A DNA stretch of 64,000 bases from a virus. The stretch covers positions 65,507 through 129,506 of the IMG/VR virus record IMGVR_UViG_3300027741_000002; one strand, written 5' to 3'. Shown piece after piece: positions 13,648 to 47,903 of this stretch. The notes under the pieces were generated by a model, which saw only the letters and a list, made by a program, of their open reading frames with translations, did no database searches and had not been told where the DNA came from. The translations under genes and the position numbers were made by a program. Numbering within the stretch: position 1 is the stretch's first letter; each line of letters opens with the position of its first letter.

Positions 13648-13860
13648 TCAGGAAAGTACAATAGCTGCTTGGTCAGGGCAATACCCAAATAACTGAGCAG
13701 ACATCTGCATACTGGTCTTACCTGTATCAGTCCAGTCCTTGTAGACTCTCTTCCACTCGTTGGAAGAAGCCTTAGGATGATAAATTAAGCACTGGCAAGG
13801 AGACGTAGATAGTTCTTCCACAGCCCTTGTCTGCTCAGCTAATTGGTTAATCCAAGTCAT
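13648..13860 (-). CDS. Hypothetical protein
   Basis: TAATG-coupled to 13860..14102. Confidence 0.6.
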   Translation of the reverse strand: MTWINQLAEQTRAVEELSTSPCQCLIYHPKASSNEWKRVYKDWTDTGKTSMQMSAQLFGYCPDQAAIVLS

Positions 13861-14102
13861 TATGCATCAACCTCTGCACGGAAATAACCGATACCTTGCT
13901 CAGCTTGAGCTAGATCTTCTACCCAAGGTAGACGTTTACGCTCAGTGTCTAAGAAAGAACTAGCGTAGAGGACTGCCTCTTTTTTGGCAGGTCCAAGAGA
14001 TTTGAAAGCTCCACGGCGTGTTTCACCACTTGCAAGGTCCTTGACCTCAACTAGCCATGCAGCGTTAGGGGCTTTGCTTTTATGTAAGGTTGCTACTATC
14101 AT
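13860..14102 (-). CDS. Hypothetical protein
   Basis: GAAAGGA RBS. Confidence 0.65.
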   Translation of the reverse strand: MIVATLHKSKAPNAAWLVEVKDLASGETRRGAFKSLGPAKKEAVLYASSFLDTERKRLPWVEDLAQAEQGIGYFRAEVDA

Positions 14103-14190
14103 GATGTCCTTTCGACATTGTTAGGTGGGTAGTTTAGTGACTTGCCCAGGTCGTTCTGTAGCGGATTGGAGTACGTTACAGAAGTTTAAT

Positions 14191-17352: not shown

Positions 17353-17371
17353 ATAGTTGAATTATATCAGG

Positions 17372-36388: not shown

Positions 36389-36461
36389 GCGGACGTAGCG
36401 CAGTTGGTAGCGCGGAACCTTGCCAAGGTTCAGGTCGCCGGTTCAAACCCGGTCGTCCGCT
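36389..36461 (+). tRNA. tRNA-Gly (GCC), CCA not encoded
   Basis: Acceptor stem GCGGACG/CGTCCGC, D-arm GCGC..GCGC, anticodon arm GAACC-TTGCCAA-GGTTC, T-arm GCCGG-TTCAAAC-CCGGT, U73. Confidence 0.96.
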
Positions 36462-45208: not shown

Positions 45209-45766
45209 CTACTCCGCGGTCTTACGAATCCAGACCTGGTAGTTCGTAACGATAAGGTTGTAGCGTCCTCTAAACAGCCTTAGAACGCAATCAATACCGT
45301 CCTTAGGGTGTAAGGGTGTTCCTTGATACATGTGCCAGTCGTAGTCGTCAAATATCATGATCCCGCCAACCTCCAGCACGCGCCAGCCATGAAGGGCATC
45401 AATCACGGTCTGCAGTGCGGTGTGATCTCCGTCTATGTAGACAACGTTAAATCTTTCACTTGCAGGGCATGTCGCAAAGTATTTATCACTTGTGCCCTTA
45501 CGCTTTTCAACCTTTTCAATTTTAGCAAATCGCTCGTCGTAGACTCTCTCAACCTGGTTAAAGTCAAAGGTACCTTCGTGCTCTATTGAGCCTTCCCAGG
45601 TGTCAACGTCTACTATCCTGTTGATGTTTTTATTGTCTAATAACCACTGTGTTGTGTCACCCTCATATACTCCGATCTGTAAAACAGTTAAGGGAGATTC
45701 AATCCTCAGGTAGTTTTCAAAGTTTGGTTTAACGTGGTTAAACCACGTAGGAAGCTCTTGCTCCAC
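45209..45766 (-). CDS. Class I SAM-dependent methyltransferase (Methyltransf_24-like)
   Basis: LQIGVYEG, VDTWEGS, VYIDGDH, LEVGGIMIFDDY. Confidence 0.88.
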   Translation of the reverse strand: MEQELPTWFNHVKPNFENYLRIESPLTVLQIGVYEGDTTQWLLDNKNINRIVDVDTWEGSIEHEGTFDFNQVERVYDERFAKIEKVEKRKGTSDKYFATCPASERFNVVYIDGDHTALQTVIDALHGWRVLEVGGIMIFDDYDWHMYQGTPLHPKDGIDCVLRLFRGRYNLIVTNYQVWIRKTAE

Positions 45767-46116
45767 TACTCAACACGTCCAAAATCATCTTCATATCTAA
45801 TGATGTCATCTTCTCCAAGATACTCACCTGTTTGAATCTCGATAAAGACGAGGTCGCCTTCGCCTTCGGCTCTTACGCGGTGAACTTCTCCAACCCCAAT
45901 TGAGACGTAGTCTCCTGGGCCAAGATGAAGTATCTGGTCAAATAGCTCGACCTCCGCGTAACCTTGCGTGATGTACCAATGCTCCGCGCGGTGTTTGTGT
46001 GATTGCTTACTTAAACGACTTCCGTTTTCAACGTGTATTCGTTTGACCTGTACTTTTTGCTCAGTGTGAAGGATTACATAGAAGCCCCAAGGGCGAACAA
46101 AGATCTCCGGTGTCAT
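45766..46116 (-). CDS. Cupin, type II mannose-6-phosphate isomerase C-terminal-like
   Basis: RPWGFY, LSKQSHKHRAEHW, FIEIQTGEYLGEDDIIRYEDDFGR. Confidence 0.88.
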   Translation of the reverse strand: MTPEIFVRPWGFYVILHTEQKVQVKRIHVENGSRLSKQSHKHRAEHWYITQGYAEVELFDQILHLGPGDYVSIGVGEVHRVRAEGEGDLVFIEIQTGEYLGEDDIIRYEDDFGRVE

Positions 46117-46139
46117 GAATGAACTGTATCATAAAAATT

Positions 46140-46370
46140 AGAAAGAATCGGGTCTAGCACTGGCAGCGCTTCTTATGCTACCCGTAACGATAGCTCGCTA
46201 ATCAACAACCCACTCGATGTCTACCCAGCCAGTGCTAGACACTCAACTCTGAAGTTGGAGTGGATGACAGTTGTACGTCTTATCCAGGACGATTCGCATT
46301 GGCGGGATTAGCGAAGGTTCGCTTTCGTTGTGACAAGCTACTGATGGCGGCACCAGGCCAGTGGCGATGC
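46140..46370 (-). ncRNA. Candidate structured, pseudoknotted non-coding RNA (about 230 nt)
   Basis: TGTTATAAT promoter at 46375; 13-bp perfect stem 46152-64/46228-40; 9-bp and 6-bp crossing pairings; only an 18-codon ORF inside. Confidence 0.6.
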
Positions 46371-46388
46371 TTAAATTATAACAGGATC

Positions 46389-46664
46389 CTAGACAGCTTT
46401 TAGCGTATTTACCCAGCCGACGATACCTTCAATAGATAAGTCCATCATGCCGTCTTCCCCTAGAAGATCCTCTAGACGGGTTAAGATCTCGCTAAGTTCA
46501 TCCCTATCTACGTCACATACGTTCTGGATGTATGTCTCCATGAGAGCCATCAGTTCCTTCATGAACTCAACGGGGACGAGGAGTAGCCCTTCCTCCTCAA
46601 GATACTGCATTAGAACATCATCATCTCTACCAAAATCAGGGTCTATATCGTCGTTGAATTCCAT
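46389..46664 (-). CDS. Acidic hypothetical protein (leaderless)
   Basis: TACTAT-N6-ATG; very D/E-rich. Confidence 0.65.
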   Translation of the reverse strand: MEFNDDIDPDFGRDDDVLMQYLEEEGLLLVPVEFMKELMALMETYIQNVCDVDRDELSEILTRLEDLLGEDGMMDLSIEGIVGWVNTLKAV

Positions 46665-46766
46665 TGATAGATAGTATCCCACAAAACCTGCGGTGATAGT
46701 TGTACGTTCTGGCCTCTATGTGATATTGTCTATTATACTAAATGACACACTACGAAAGGCACTAAG

Positions 46767-47903
46767 ATGAAAAGACGTATAACGCTACTTGGGATTGTTT
46801 CCATGGCAACTCTCATCGCAACACCTGCTCACGCGGACTGGGCAATTGACACAGACTCTAGCTCCACAGTTTCCCGCATGGCAGGAGACGATCTGCTTCA
46901 GACTAGGGCAGACGGCTACTTTTTAATTACCGCAGACGAAATTTTTTCTACTCCTCAGATGTCTCTTCAGACAGAAGCTCCTAGGCCAAAGGCGCAGTAT
47001 GCAGTTATCGTTGGCGGAGTTGTTGATAAGATTGTTACCTGGGACGGTTATACGCCTAATCGCAAGATTGATGCGTACGGCATTATCGTAAAGCTTCCTG
47101 TGTCAAAGGGAGTCAAGTACGTAGACTCAAATGGAGTAATTCGATTTAAGCCAGTTACACAGGGATCCATCATTTCTGTTCTACAGGATACAGGCAAGGT
47201 TGTTACACCTTCGTATGATGTTATTCTAAACGAGCTACTTTCACTAGTACAACCGATGGGTAACGCTGTAGCCGAGGCTAACACTCCGGTTGTCGTATCT
47301 CAAACTGTTGCTACGAATAACTCAGTTTCTCTTAATATTCAGGTACCTGACGTTGCAAATCTTCCTTTAACGTCATCTGTATCTGTCTACGTCATAACGG
47401 ACGGTAGATCTACCACTGCTATTGGTTTAGCTCCATCACAAACTGCGGTGACAGTAACGGACGTACCTCAAGGGCAGAACGTTACAGTTAAGACCGTTAT
47501 TCGTGACTCCGTGACAAACACGGAAAGAGTCATCTCAAATCCGGTAATTGCTACAGTAGCTGCAACACTTCCTGCTACCGTTGCTGCAAGAGACGCTGCA
47601 CGTGATGTTGCTACGATTGCTGCTCCGGTAACCCAGGCGGTAACCACCGACACGTCGGGCGCTCGTCAGGCAACGATCTCAATACCTGCGGTGACGAACT
47701 TTGATGGTAATAAGACCTGGGCAACCCTTATGGTTGTTGATAAGAAGACAGGGTCTACTACCGCGATTGGCACCGACGGGTCTGCACAGACTATCGACGT
47801 TAACTCGTTAGGGTCTAGCAGCGAGTATACCGTTAAGCTTGTTCTTCGCGATCTAGCAACAGGACAAGAGACAACTATCTACGGTGAGACAATTAACAAG
47901 TAA
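46767..47903 (+). CDS. Exported protein with two FN3-like repeats
   Basis: Signal peptide ending AHA; repeats GRSTTAIG..KTVIRDSVT and GSTTAIG..KLVLRDLAT. Confidence 0.72.
   Translation: MKRRITLLGIVSMATLIATPAHADWAIDTDSSSTVSRMAGDDLLQTRADGYFLITADEIFSTPQMSLQTEAPRPKAQYAVIVGGVVDKIVTWDGYTPNRKIDAYGIIVKLPVSKGVKYVDSNGVIRFKPVTQGSIISVLQDTGKVVTPSYDVILNELLSLVQPMGNAVAEANTPVVVSQTVATNNSVSLNIQVPDVANLPLTSSVSVYVITDGRSTTAIGLAPSQTAVTVTDVPQGQNVTVKTVIRDSVTNTERVISNPVIATVAATLPATVAARDAARDVATIAAPVTQAVTTDTSGARQATISIPAVTNFDGNKTWATLMVVDKKTGSTTAIGTDGSAQTIDVNSLGSSSEYTVKLVLRDLATGQETTIYGETINK

What the first reader, a model, noticed from the sequence alone, without database searches (positions are those of the whole stretch)
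46140..46370. Second candidate structured RNA, pseudoknotted with a possible switch, upstream of the mannose-isomerase cupin
Seen: an own TGTTATAAT promoter and a 13-bp perfect stem. Its loop can pair outside via TCGCTAATC/GATTAGCGA (46195/46306) and CCACTC/GAGTGG (46210/46258). The 7-mer GCCAGTG occurs at 46228 and 46357, so the 5' end can compete for the 3' arm of the main stem. A T-rich tract follows. Known: the manA RNA motif occurs upstream of such isomerase genes in aquatic phages, but I cannot confirm a match. The cupin also has its own leaderless-type -10, which favours a stand-alone RNA.
Basis: partly seen in the sequence, partly recalled or inferred. Interest (0 to 1): 0.7.

Follow-up and report, generated by a model that had tools for sequence, protein, structure and literature searches.

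The report
Double-pseudoknot RNA gene of lake phages
A lake phage carries a small gene that makes a folded RNA of about 230 bases instead of a protein; its relatives keep the fold, no catalogued RNA family matches it, and its front part copies a tiny RNA knot also found in some bacteria and many other phages, but its job is still unknown.

Summary
On the minus strand, between a 97-aa ORF and a mannose-isomerase-type cupin gene, lies a ~230-nt RNA gene (about 46368 to 46133). Its promoter, CCTGTTATAAT, is one of 17 copies of the phage's repeated promoter.

Two clades of uncultured phage contigs share a ~150-nt core. There are 40 distinct cores in 106 loci. On 22 sequences, 98.6% of cells pair and 22 of 40 pairs change on both sides.

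I found a second pseudoknot (hairpin loop with UGUC). I also found a conserved alternative pairing of the 3' tail that extends the long stem up to a U-tract.

No Rfam 15 family matches, manA and wcaG included.

The first 33 nt of the core is a small H-type pseudoknot that recurs elsewhere. It follows a conserved micro-ORF in 11 of 151 sampled Actinomycetota genomes. It sits in 5' leaders on 77 IMG/VR stretches, and occurs once more in this phage.

Best reading: a stand-alone, accessory non-coding RNA built on a widespread pseudoknot module. Its function is untested. A leader or terminator switch for the cupin operon is the main rival.

This scan earlier found a different new RNA in the same genome.

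The parts
46375..46385 (-). Promoter CCTGTTATAAT (extended -10: TG at 46383-46382, TATAAT at 46380-46375). The predicted transcription start is about 46368.
   Evidence: Read. CCTG[T/A]TATAAT occurs 17 times in the window with at most 1 mismatch, all on the minus strand, against 1.07 expected. It is conserved directly upstream of the RNA in all clade-A relatives. The start site is inferred, not measured.
46133..46368 (-). The whole predicted RNA, about 230 nt: a 5' accessory domain, the conserved core, a tail and a U-rich tract.
   Evidence: The ends are inferred from the promoter and from the tail with its U-rich tract. Contigs from metatranscriptome libraries cover parts of it. No 5' or 3' end has been measured.
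46294..46367 (-). Lineage-specific 5' accessory domain ('type 1'). Closing helix UCGC (46367-46364) with GCGA (46297-46294). Hairpin GCUUGUC (46338-46332) with GAAAGC (46326-46321).
   Evidence: Found by RNAalifold on 14 full-length sequences. Pair counts are: the closing helix is 92.9% paired with 2 pairs changed on both sides, and the hairpin has one covarying pair (AU 5, GC 5, GU 4). Some relatives have a different 5' domain here (L019, L092, L093, clade B) and L088 has none.
46266..46291 (-). Small H-type pseudoknot module. P1/H1 is CGUC (46291-46288) with GACG (46279-46276). The loop GAUA (46284-46281) pairs with UGUC (46269-46266), which lies after the tract GUACAAC.
   Evidence: H1 is invariant in 22 of 22 sequences. 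The loop pairing is 95.5% paired and 3 of 4 pairs change on both sides, for example AU 11 and GC 11. The same module aligns without gaps to 12 bacterial copies. The central P2 pairs are GC 15/AU 5, GC 14/AU 4/GU 2 and CG 13/UG 5/UA 1.
46210..46263 (-). Second pseudoknot, H2: CCACUC (46263-46258) with GAGUGG (46215-46210). It crosses H4.
   Evidence: 100% paired, with 3 of 6 pairs changed on both sides in clade A. In clade B the helix is UCCCGA/UCGGGG, with one pair AU 7 and GC 5.
46244..46257 (-). Hairpin H3: CAACU (46257-46253), loop UCAG, AGUUG (46248-46244).
   Evidence: 99.1% paired. One pair changes from A-U to U-A in 3 sequences. Clade B carries an extra hairpin inserted in the loop.
46152..46240 (-). 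It encloses the 3' strand of H2, H6 and H5.
   Evidence: Perfect inverted repeat. 10 of 13 pairs change on both sides across 22 sequences. Clade B has a different sequence here, GCUAGACGCUGG/CCAGCGUCUAGC.
46165..46199 (-). H6 is AGCG (46199-46196) with CGCU (46168-46165). It encloses hairpin H5, GCUAUC (46194-46189) with GGUAGC (46182-46177).
   Evidence: H6 has 3 of 4 pairs changed on both sides. H5 has 2 of 4. The clade-B equivalents are GGGG/CCCC and GAUAGC/GCUAUC, with 2 pairs changed on both sides.
46133..46151 (-). 3' tail CGAUUC (46150-46145) followed by the U-rich tract UUUCUAAUUUUU (46144-46133). The tail can pair with GAGUUG (46249-46244), which includes the 3' strand of H3. That pairing would extend H4 up to the U tract.
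   Evidence: All 6 tail pairs are kept in 14 of 14 type-1 sequences, by one-sided changes only. In 40 of 44 distinct variants at least 5 of 6 tail positions can pair. The terminator or switch role is inferred.
46114..46131 (-). The cupin gene's own leaderless-type promoter: TG (46131-46130), TACAGT (46128-46123), 6 nt, then ATG (46116-46114).
   Evidence: One match in the window against 0.12 expected. It is conserved before the cupin in both clades. In L017, which has no RNA, it stands before the methyltransferase gene.
45766..46116 (-). Downstream gene: a 116-aa cupin that corresponds to the C-terminal isomerase domain of GMP/PMI enzymes.
   Evidence: Pfam PF01050, E 6e-30. TIGR01479 positions 360-466, E 3e-30.
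46389..46682 (-). Upstream gene: an acidic 97-aa ORF with no known family. It is linked to the RNA in clade A only.
   Evidence: No Pfam, PHROG or NCBIfam match. Homologues lie 93-122 nt upstream of the core in clade A, and 21 nt upstream in the L088 group, which has no 5' domain. It has no similarity to the ORF that lies upstream of the RNA in clade B.
14117..14156 (-). Second, diverged copy of the small pseudoknot module in the same phage. It lies in the leader of the 80-aa ORF 13860-14102, and its P1 is flipped to GAC/GUC.
   Evidence: Model R2 scores it 21.9 bits, E 2.3e-4, over the window with filters off.

Best explanation
It is a separate gene for a structured non-coding RNA of about 230 nt. 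It is an accessory element of a group of large lake phages that probably infect actinobacteria.

Transcription starts at one of the phage's own repeated CCTG(T/A)TATAAT promoters.

The RNA has three parts:
- A replaceable 5' domain.
- A conserved ~150-nt core with two pseudoknots.
- A 3' tail plus U-tract. The tail probably extends the long stem H4 to form the terminator.

The first 33 nt of the core is a small H-type pseudoknot: a 3-4 bp stem whose loop pairs just after an A-rich tract. The same module follows a conserved micro-ORF in some Actinomycetota genomes and sits in the 5' leaders of many unrelated phage genes.

My inference is that the RNA acts in trans. It would display this module, held by the larger double-pseudoknot scaffold, to whatever host or phage factor or ligand recognises it. 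That would make it a decoy or sponge, or a recruiter.

What is shown and what is inferred:
- Shown: the fold, the family, the promoter family and the shared module.
- Inferred: the transcript ends, action in trans and the decoy role.
For: Structure
- On 22 clade-A cores, 98.6% of 880 cells pair and 22 of 40 pairs change on both sides. No shuffle in 500 reaches this. Slid controls give at most 4 such pairs.
- The same model holds on 14 full-length RNAs: 99.4% paired, 16 of 47 pairs changed on both sides.
- It holds on 12 clade-B RNAs: 98.4% paired.

Family
- R1 scores fall into separate bands. Clade A scores 135-166 bits in 29 loci, clade B scores 56-62 bits in 10 loci, and all the rest score 34 bits or less.
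- There are 40 distinct cores in 106 loci.
- There is a single copy in the phage's own genome.

Own transcription unit
- The promoter is one of 17 near-identical copies in the window, against 1.07 expected.
- In L088 the promoter abuts the core directly.
- Clade B has its own TTGTAC-N17-GATATAAT promoter.
- A tail plus U-rich tract follows the core.
- The cupin has its own conserved leaderless -10.

Not tied to one downstream gene
- Other genes, some on the opposite strand, lie between the RNA and the cupin in 11 core-contexts. The cupin is absent in 2.
- In L111 and in the L164 group a convergent gene follows directly.

Accessory element
- The complete relative G001 (cupin 90% identical) lacks the RNA. 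So does Actinomycetia phage DSL-LC01.

Not a known family
- No Rfam match.

Shared module

RNA libraries
- Contigs from metatranscriptome libraries of 3 studies cover parts of the RNA. X1 covers 46186-46421 with no differences. X4 covers 46196-46295. X3 covers 46073-46472 and comes from a relative.
Against: - No transcript end, abundance or strand has been measured. The library contigs may derive from DNA. The X1 contig runs across the promoter into the upstream ORF.
- A cupin gene lies downstream on the same strand in 30 of 32 core-contexts that could be judged, and directly adjacent in 19. A cis or functional link to the cupin is therefore a live option.
- Relatives of the L092 type have no U-tract between the RNA and the cupin promoter. 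In those, read-through is likely.
- Nothing identifies the factor or ligand. The decoy idea rests only on the shared module.
- The bacterial genomes that carry the module are not shown to be hosts of these phages.
Confidence: 0.55

Rival explanations
1. It is a cis-acting leader, either a riboswitch-like attenuator or a protein-dependent one, for the cupin-methyltransferase operon. The double-pseudoknot core would be the sensor. The 3' tail would compete with the 5' strand of hairpin H3 for the strand GAGUUG. When the tail wins, H4 extends up to the U-tract and transcription from the strong early promoter stops. When H3 forms, transcription reads through into the cupin.
For: - A cupin lies downstream on the same strand in 30 of 32 core-contexts that could be judged, across two clades whose cupins are only 44-59% identical to this one.
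- The alternative tail pairing is kept in 14 of 14 type-1 sequences. At least 5 of 6 positions can pair in 40 of 44 variants, in three different sequence forms.
- A U-rich tract follows the tail in most variants.
- Homologous cupins in cyanophages also sit beside a candidate riboswitch, wcaG (PMC2864571, passages read).
Against: - The cupin has its own conserved -10 at leaderless distance and no Shine-Dalgarno sequence.
- In most of clade B, genes lie between the RNA and the cupin, some convergent.
- In L111 and the L164 group no gene follows on the same strand.
- G001 keeps the cupin without the RNA.
- When H3 changed (CAUCU/AGAUG), its 5' strand changed with it. The tail did not.
- The tail pairing shows one-sided changes only.
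Confidence: 0.25
2. It is a catalytic or self-assembling RNA. One option is a self-cleaving ribozyme that processes the early transcript. The other is an RNA-only multimer, like the cages recently reported for manA RNAs.
For: - Many nucleotides in loops and junctions are invariant: 47 invariant columns of 157 in 22 sequences.
- Two pseudoknots form a compact ~150-nt core.
- There is a precedent. manA RNAs, long taken for riboswitches, form 8-, 10- and 60-subunit assemblies (bioRxiv 10.64898/2026.07.01.735769, passages read).
Against: - No match to any ribozyme family in Rfam 15.
- No cleavage site, loop-loop complementarity or palindromic loop emerged from the alignments I made. I ran no dedicated test.
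- Nothing in the contigs laid shows a processed end, and contigs cannot show ends in any case.
Confidence: 0.1
3. It is not an RNA gene. The conservation would reflect a small protein-coding gene, a DNA-level site such as an operator or an attachment site, or plain chance.
For: - The single-sequence fold is only weakly better than shuffles: z -1.71 on the minus strand and -0.61 on the plus strand.
- A 47-aa ORF (46260-46403, plus strand) overlaps the region.
- H1 is an invariant inverted repeat and could be a DNA site.
Against: - Strand-specific compensatory changes, including G-U pairs, occur in seven helices.
- One- and two-base insertions and deletions are scattered through the alignments, which rules out a conserved reading frame.
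- The 5' domains are swapped as whole units.
Confidence: 0.03

Closest known systems
manA (RF01745) and wcaG (RF01761) RNA motifs of cyanophages and marine bacteria
   Same: Both are complex-folded RNAs of aquatic phages whose function is unproven. Both lie next to small 'mannose-6-phosphate isomerase' cupin genes and sugar genes. Cupins 41-45% identical to this one occur in Synechococcus phages. There, wcaG lies just downstream of the cupin in L210 and L212 (66.4 and 64.1 bits), and it is annotated so in S-SCSM1. The gene associations are described in PMC2864571 (passages read).
   Different: There is no sequence or structure match. Neither family appears at E<=10 in the window region or in 10 relatives' loci. 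The hosts, the helices and the position (upstream here, with its own promoter and terminator-like tail) all differ.
Pseudo-ToxI RNA of phage PhiTE (RNA mimicry of a type III antitoxin pseudoknot)
   Same: It is a precedent for a phage-encoded RNA that copies a host pseudoknot RNA in order to titrate a host factor (PMC3475682; I saw the search listing and the start of the abstract only). Here too, a phage RNA carries a near-copy of a small pseudoknot found in bacterial genomes.
   Different: There are no tandem 34-40-nt repeats. No ToxN-like gene was looked for or seen. Here the bacterial module follows a micro-ORF, and its partner is unknown. The resemblance concerns a possible mode of action only.
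preQ1-I riboswitch class (smallest H-type pseudoknot aptamers)
   Same: The topology matches that of the 33-nt module: a short P1 hairpin, an A-rich 3' tract, then a 3' strand that pairs with the hairpin loop. This description of preQ1-I comes from my own recall, not from a call.
   Different: Rfam's PreQ1 models do not match the module in the window, in two bacterial loci or in 11 viral loci. P1 is 3-4 bp and P2 up to 6 bp here. The genes beside the module are unrelated to queuosine.
Abundant early small non-coding RNAs of Cluster A mycobacteriophages (D29, L5, StarStuff)
   Same: They are actinophage RNAs made from an early lytic promoter. They are non-coding and their function is unknown (PMC5712189, abstract read).
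   Different: No sequence relation was tested. Those RNAs were found by RNA-seq and lie at the genome end. No covarying double-pseudoknot fold is described in the abstract.
The other new structured RNA of this same phage (window 17069-17371, earlier finding e1-6144932)
   Same: It is in the same genome and on the same strand. A copy of the same promoter type lies at 17361-17371. It too is a stand-alone RNA absent from Rfam.
   Different: It is not a paralogue. Model R1 finds only one copy in the whole genome. Model R2 finds no module there.

Membership tests
manA RNA motif (RF01745) | A match to the Rfam covariance model at or near its gathering score. | tested here: not met
   No manA match at E<=10 in window 45900-46600, at gathering score in the whole window, or at E<=10 in 10 loci of relatives.
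wcaG RNA motif (RF01761) | A match to the Rfam covariance model. | tested here: not met
   No match. Positive control: the same tool found wcaG at 66.4 and 64.1 bits beside homologous cupins in cyanophage loci L210 and L212.
Any Rfam 15 family (4227 models) | A match at the gathering score. | tested here: not met
   In the window only a tRNA at 36389-36461 reaches gathering score. The best hit in the region is SNORD108 at 15.1 bits, E 8.1.
tRNA / tmRNA | Detected by ARAGORN. | tested here: not met
   0 genes in 45900-46700.
Riboswitch or cis-regulatory leader (generic) | Lies consistently in the 5' UTR of the regulated gene, with no intervening promoter or gene. | tested here: inconclusive
   The cupin is adjacent in 19 core-contexts, distal with other genes between in 11, and absent in 2. 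A conserved leaderless -10 lies between the RNA and the cupin.
Riboswitch or cis-regulatory leader (generic) | An expression platform with mutually exclusive pairings. | tested here: inconclusive
   The tail-versus-H3 alternative is conserved in potential. It shows one-sided changes only and is missing in the L092 type.
Riboswitch (generic) | Binds a ligand specifically. | not testable with these tools
   This needs in-line probing, ITC or SHAPE with candidate ligands.
Type III antitoxin RNA (ToxI-like) or its phage mimic | Tandem direct repeats of a ~35-nt pseudoknot unit. | tested here: not met
   No such repeat family appears in 46050-46450. The module occurs once in the RNA and once 32 kb away.
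preQ1-I riboswitch | A match to the Rfam PreQ1 model. | tested here: not met
   No PreQ1 hit at E<=10, E<=5 or E<=1.
New family defined here (model R1) | Core with helices H1, H3, H4, H5 and H6 plus the two pseudoknots. | tested here: met
   The window scores 156 bits with R1. The window sequence was part of the seed alignment, so this match is by construction. Independent members score 135-166 bits (clade A) and 56-62 bits (clade B).

The most novel reading that the evidence does not exclude
The 33-nt H-type pseudoknot (consensus GUCC-YGRGCAW-GACG-YWAAAC-UGCC) is an undescribed, widely spread RNA module that binds a common cellular factor or small ligand. Bacteria place it at the stop codon of a conserved micro-protein gene (M-K-R-F-x-x-P-R-x-A-H-C-x-E-G-H/C). 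Phages place it in the leaders of many genes. This phage group has fused it to a second pseudoknotted domain to make a free-standing decoy or sensor RNA that is functionally coupled to the cupin (sugar-modification) operon.
Probability: 0.3. Interest if true: 0.85.

Novelty: new variant of a known kind. Interest (0 to 1): 0.72.

Why it matters
- Phage-encoded structured RNAs are few, and most have no known function. This one has unusually clean comparative support for a double-pseudoknot fold, so it is ready for bench work.
- It links three settings through one tiny pseudoknot: a free phage RNA, the leaders of many phage genes, and a bacterial micro-ORF. If that module binds a shared factor or ligand, it would be a new general regulatory element. 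The phage RNA would then be a natural decoy or sensor.
- It gives a second, unrelated case beside manA and wcaG of a complex RNA travelling with the small isomerase-type cupin of aquatic phages. That makes the old question of what such RNAs do with these genes testable in another system.

Tried and rejected
Ideas tested and dropped:
1. The repeated word AGTTGTACGT (46269 and 46698) as a phage motif. It has 3 matches against 4.84 expected, so it is chance.
3. Pairing of GAAUCG, just 5' of H1, with the tail CGAUUC. It is 91.7% paired but shows no change on both sides, one pair breaks in 6 of 14 sequences, and it overlaps H1.
4. RNAalifold's alternative to H1 and H2 (UGGA/UCCA and GACG/UGUC). All its pairs are invariant in type 1. 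By reading, it cannot form in clade B or in L093.
5. Pairing of CAAC in the junction with GUUG after H2. By reading, half of the relatives have GUCG there.
6. Antisense pairing of UGUCAU with the cupin start AUGACA. By reading, it is not kept in L019, L092, L093 or L088.
7. A relation between the 97-aa ORF and the ORF upstream of the RNA in clade B. No alignment at E<=100.
8. A regulated pathway for the bacterial micro-ORF unit. The downstream genes are unrelated to each other: LemA, TPR, FAD oxidoreductase and pentapeptide-repeat proteins.
9. A passing likeness of GGACAAGACG to the guanidine-III riboswitch. That sequence is recalled from memory, not taken from a call. The two would differ in topology, and Rfam's ykkC-III model gave no hit.

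Searches that gave nothing:
- blastn of the region against 50,697 phage records found no match.
- The 14 matches of the 30-nt pattern in 185,579 species genomes are chance. R1 scores them at 28 bits or less.
- Of 58 more distant cupin loci, only L029 and L057 hold the RNA.
- Pfam and NCBIfam have no family for the micro-ORF peptides.
- Paper searches found nothing on this RNA or on the module.
- In Fremin et al. 2023 (PMC10690425) the words cupin and mannose do not occur in the main text. That paper's supplementary tables list over 10,000 candidate RNAs. I could not see them, and they may include this family or the module.

Reads:
- Only Logan contigs were available, so no ends, strand or expression level can be read from them.
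- In one search, runs X1, X2 and X4 laid nothing on most of the flanking genes. No run laid anything on 46477-46800.
- As the tool states, a part without cover proves nothing. I draw no conclusion from it.

A script that failed:
- One long regular expression meant to pick out the clade-B helices matched none of 13 sequences.
- I replaced it with an alignment and pair counts.

Rows dropped before counts:
- L135 and L188, which are chance pattern matches, and the self-loci L101, L208, L214 and L215 were left out of the count.
- In one search, L176 and L120 were mis-located by the script (9 of 11 stem pairs; L120 is cut by its contig end). They count among the 4 of 44 variants with fewer than 5 tail pairs.
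Full report
**Where it is.** The window is bases 65507-129506 of a 129,506-bp phage record with direct terminal repeats. The finding lies in the 272-bp gap between two minus-strand genes. Upstream is a 97-aa acidic ORF (46389-46682) with no family in Pfam, PHROGs or NCBIfam. Downstream is a 116-aa cupin (45766-46116). The cupin matches the C-terminal isomerase domain of GMP/PMI enzymes (PF01050, E 6e-30; TIGR01479 positions 360-466). The feature must therefore be read on the minus strand.

**Host clue.** The phage's class II ribonucleotide reductase is 79.9% identical to that of Actinomycetia phage DSL-LC01 and 57% identical to those of mycobacteriophages. This fits an actinobacterial host but does not prove one.

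**The observation.** Folding the single sequence gives only z = -1.71 on the minus strand and -0.61 on the plus strand. The case therefore rests on comparison with relatives.

**Relatives.**
- Protein-anchored searches with the cupin and with the 97-aa ORF brought in close and distant phage contigs. A blastn of the gap against these loci showed that it is conserved.
- A 30-nt pattern from the most conserved part found 33 IMG/VR stretches, 60 metagenome stretches and 14 stretches in species genomes.
- A covariance model, R1, was built from 22 cores. Its scores separate three groups: clade A at 135-166 bits, clade B at 56-62 bits, and chance matches at 34 bits or less. All 14 bacterial and archaeal matches fall in the chance group.
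- In total there are 106 member loci and 40 distinct 140-nt cores.
- The phage itself has one copy.

**Structure.** All window coordinates are on the minus strand.
- H1: 46291-46288 with 46279-46276. It is invariant.
- A pseudoknot that I added: loop GAUA (46284-46281) with UGUC (46269-46266).
- Hairpin H3: 46257-46244.
- H6: 46199-46196 with 46168-46165. It encloses hairpin H5 (46194-46177).

**Support for the structure.**
- On 22 sequences, 98.6% of 880 cells pair and 22 of 40 pairs change on both sides. None of 500 shuffles reaches the observed values. Sliding the partners by 1-3 columns leaves 30-45% paired and at most 4 such pairs (one search gives the model without the new pseudoknot).
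- H4 alone has 10 of 13 pairs changed on both sides.
- On 14 full-length RNAs the model, with two helices of the 5' domain added, is 99.4% paired.
- On 12 clade-B RNAs it is 98.4% paired. Those RNAs are 285-329 nt long and carry extra hairpins. Their H4 has a different sequence, and one pseudoknot pair is A-U in 7 and G-C in 5.

**The 5' domain is replaceable.** The window type, a second type shared by other clade-A members and related to that of clade B, and no domain at all in L088 are all found. Scattered 1- and 2-nt insertions and deletions exclude a conserved reading frame.

**What is not supported.** The 9-bp TCGCTAATC/GATTAGCGA pairing uses the 5' strand of the covarying H6 and pairs in only 72% of cells. 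The 5' 7-mer pairs with the 3' arm of H4 in 82% of cells but breaks where H4 has changed. On the covariation measures, 97 to 122 of 500 shuffles do as well.

**A different alternative pairing.** The six bases after H4 (CGAUUC here, CGGCUY or CAACUA elsewhere, CGGCC in clade B) can pair with the 3' strand of H3.
- This would lengthen H4 up to the U-rich tract.
- All six pairs hold in 14 of 14 type-1 RNAs, by one-sided changes only.
- At least 5 of 6 pair in 40 of 44 variants.
- Where H3 changed, to CAUCU/AGAUG, its own 5' strand followed and the tail did not.
- I therefore take H3 as the selected fold and the tail pairing as a terminator or switch state. This last step is inference.

**Transcription unit.**
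- CCTG(T/A)TATAAT occurs 17 times in the window, always on the minus strand, against 1.07 expected. One copy heads the other new RNA of this phage.
- The cupin has its own TGATACAGT element six bases before its ATG. The same arrangement stands before the cupin in both clades. In L017, which has no RNA, it stands before the methyltransferase gene.

**Expression.** Contigs from metatranscriptome libraries cover parts of the RNA. X1 has a 236-nt contig identical over 46186-46421. X4 covers 46196-46295 and continues into a type-2 5' domain. X3 has a 1322-nt contig from a relative. This shows presence in RNA libraries only. It does not show transcription, ends or strand.

**Link to the cupin.**
- Of 32 core-contexts that could be judged, 30 have a cupin downstream on the same strand: 19 adjacent and 11 with other genes between. 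Two have none.
- The genes in between include a convergent thioredoxin-like ORF in L110 and a glycine-rich fibre gene in L181.
- The reverse does not hold. Only 2 of 58 more distant cupin loci have the RNA.
- The complete relative G001 (cupin 90% identical) and DSL-LC01 have no RNA.
- The RNA is thus an accessory gene that has stayed next to the cupin operon. This may reflect function or merely old synteny.

**Known families.** Rfam 15 gives nothing and ARAGORN gives nothing. Cupins 41-45% identical occur in Synechococcus phages. There the wcaG RNA lies just downstream. The association of complex RNAs with this cupin therefore has a precedent (PMC2864571, passages read), but the RNAs are unrelated.

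**The shared module.**
- Scanning 151 Actinomycetota genomes with R1 gave two weak hits that match only the first part of the core.
- A 23-nt pattern then hit 18 of 401 genomes, against 2 for the reversed control.
- Twelve copies in 11 loci share one context. A Shine-Dalgarno sequence is followed by a micro-ORF, in 11 of the 12 by my script and in L219 by reading. The peptide is M-K-R-F-x-x-P-R-x-A-H-C-x-E-G-H/C, 16-28 aa long, with many synonymous differences. The motif lies at or across the ORF's stop codon, and an intrinsic terminator often follows.
- The motif is an H-type pseudoknot, with P1 GUC/GAC. The loop YGRGCA pairs with UGCYCR right after the tract G-YWAAAC.
- In a gap-free alignment of 12 bacterial and 8 phage modules, the three central P2 pairs are 100%, 100% and 95% paired. 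They are G-C 15/A-U 5, G-C 14/A-U 4/G-U 2, and C-G 13/U-G 5/U-A 1.
- A small model, R2, finds the module in 11 of 151 sampled genomes, including all 5 of one order.
- R2 finds it twice in this phage: in the RNA, and in the leader of the 80-aa ORF 13860-14102. In that second copy P1 is flipped to GAC/GUC, the only variation seen in P1.
- A very strict 25-nt pattern finds 77 IMG/VR stretches. There is no micro-ORF in those (1 of 78 matches). An ORF of at least 50 aa starts 10-39 nt downstream in 48 of 78.
- The genes that follow are diverse: PcfJ-like, DUF5895, UDG/exonuclease, DUF932, scaffold and ferritin-like.
- Rfam has no family at the module. My paper searches found no description.

**Reading.**
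- Shown: a new family of double-pseudoknotted phage RNAs, their promoter, their accessory distribution, and a core that begins with a widespread small pseudoknot.
- Inferred: the RNA is a free transcript ending at the H4 tail, and it works by presenting that module to a factor or ligand. The known case of a phage RNA mimicking the ToxI pseudoknot (PMC3475682, listing and start of abstract) is a model for how that might work. It is not a family assignment.
- The main rival is a cis-acting attenuator of the cupin operon that uses the tail/H3 alternative. A ribozyme or an RNA-only assembly remains possible.

**Verdict.** It is a new RNA family of unknown function and of good interest. This scan had already reported another, unrelated new RNA in the same genome.

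Noticed in passing
L216:1329-1540, L219:1440-1540, L224-L232 around position 1501 (loci from G-handle Actinomycetota genomes): A conserved micro-gene. A Shine-Dalgarno sequence is followed by an ORF of 16-28 aa (M-K-R-F-x-x-P-R-x-A-H-C-x-E-G-H/C) and then a small H-type pseudoknot at its stop codon, often followed by a terminator. It matches no Pfam or NCBIfam family, and the genes downstream are unrelated to each other. In G025 two copies stand in tandem between serS and a tRNA.
   Followed up: partly
L233-L309 (77 IMG/VR stretches): The same pseudoknot module, matched by a strict 25-nt pattern, lies 10-39 nt upstream of the first long ORF in 48 of 78 cases. The genes are diverse (PcfJ-like, DUF5895, UDG/exonuclease, DUF932, scaffold, ferritin-like). 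It looks like a widespread leader element that Rfam does not hold.
   Followed up: partly
window 14117-14156 (-): A second, diverged copy of the module, in the leader of the 80-aa ORF 13860-14102. Its stem is flipped from GUC/GAC to GAC/GUC.
   Followed up: partly
window 46114-46131 (-); L017:2405-2425: A leaderless-type promoter, TGATA(C/T/A)AGT plus 6-7 nt and then ATG, heads the cupin operon. In L017 it heads the methyltransferase gene, which there stands before the cupin instead of after it.
   Followed up: partly
L209:2317-2403, L210:2416-2519, L212:2416-2519: In Synechococcus phages the wcaG RNA lies directly downstream of a cupin 41-42% identical to this one, ahead of 2OG-Fe(II) oxygenase and GDP-mannose dehydratase genes.
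   Followed up: yes
L181 about 2120-2260; L008, L167 and L177 downstream of the RNA: In several relatives a glycine-rich fibre-like gene (start MPIIGT...), with its own promoter and Shine-Dalgarno sequence, is inserted between the RNA and the cupin.
   Followed up: no
window 46389-46682 (-): The 97-aa protein upstream of the RNA is very acidic and has no family. It is conserved in clade A, and also in G001, which lacks the RNA.
   Followed up: partly
L246:100-224 (-): A partial tmRNA-like match (37.2 bits, below the gathering score of 47) on a viral contig that also carries two copies of the pseudoknot module.
   Followed up: no
window 46269-46278 and 46698-46707 (+): The word AGTTGTACGT occurs twice within 430 bp. 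Window-wide there are 3 matches against 4.84 expected, so it is chance.
   Followed up: yes
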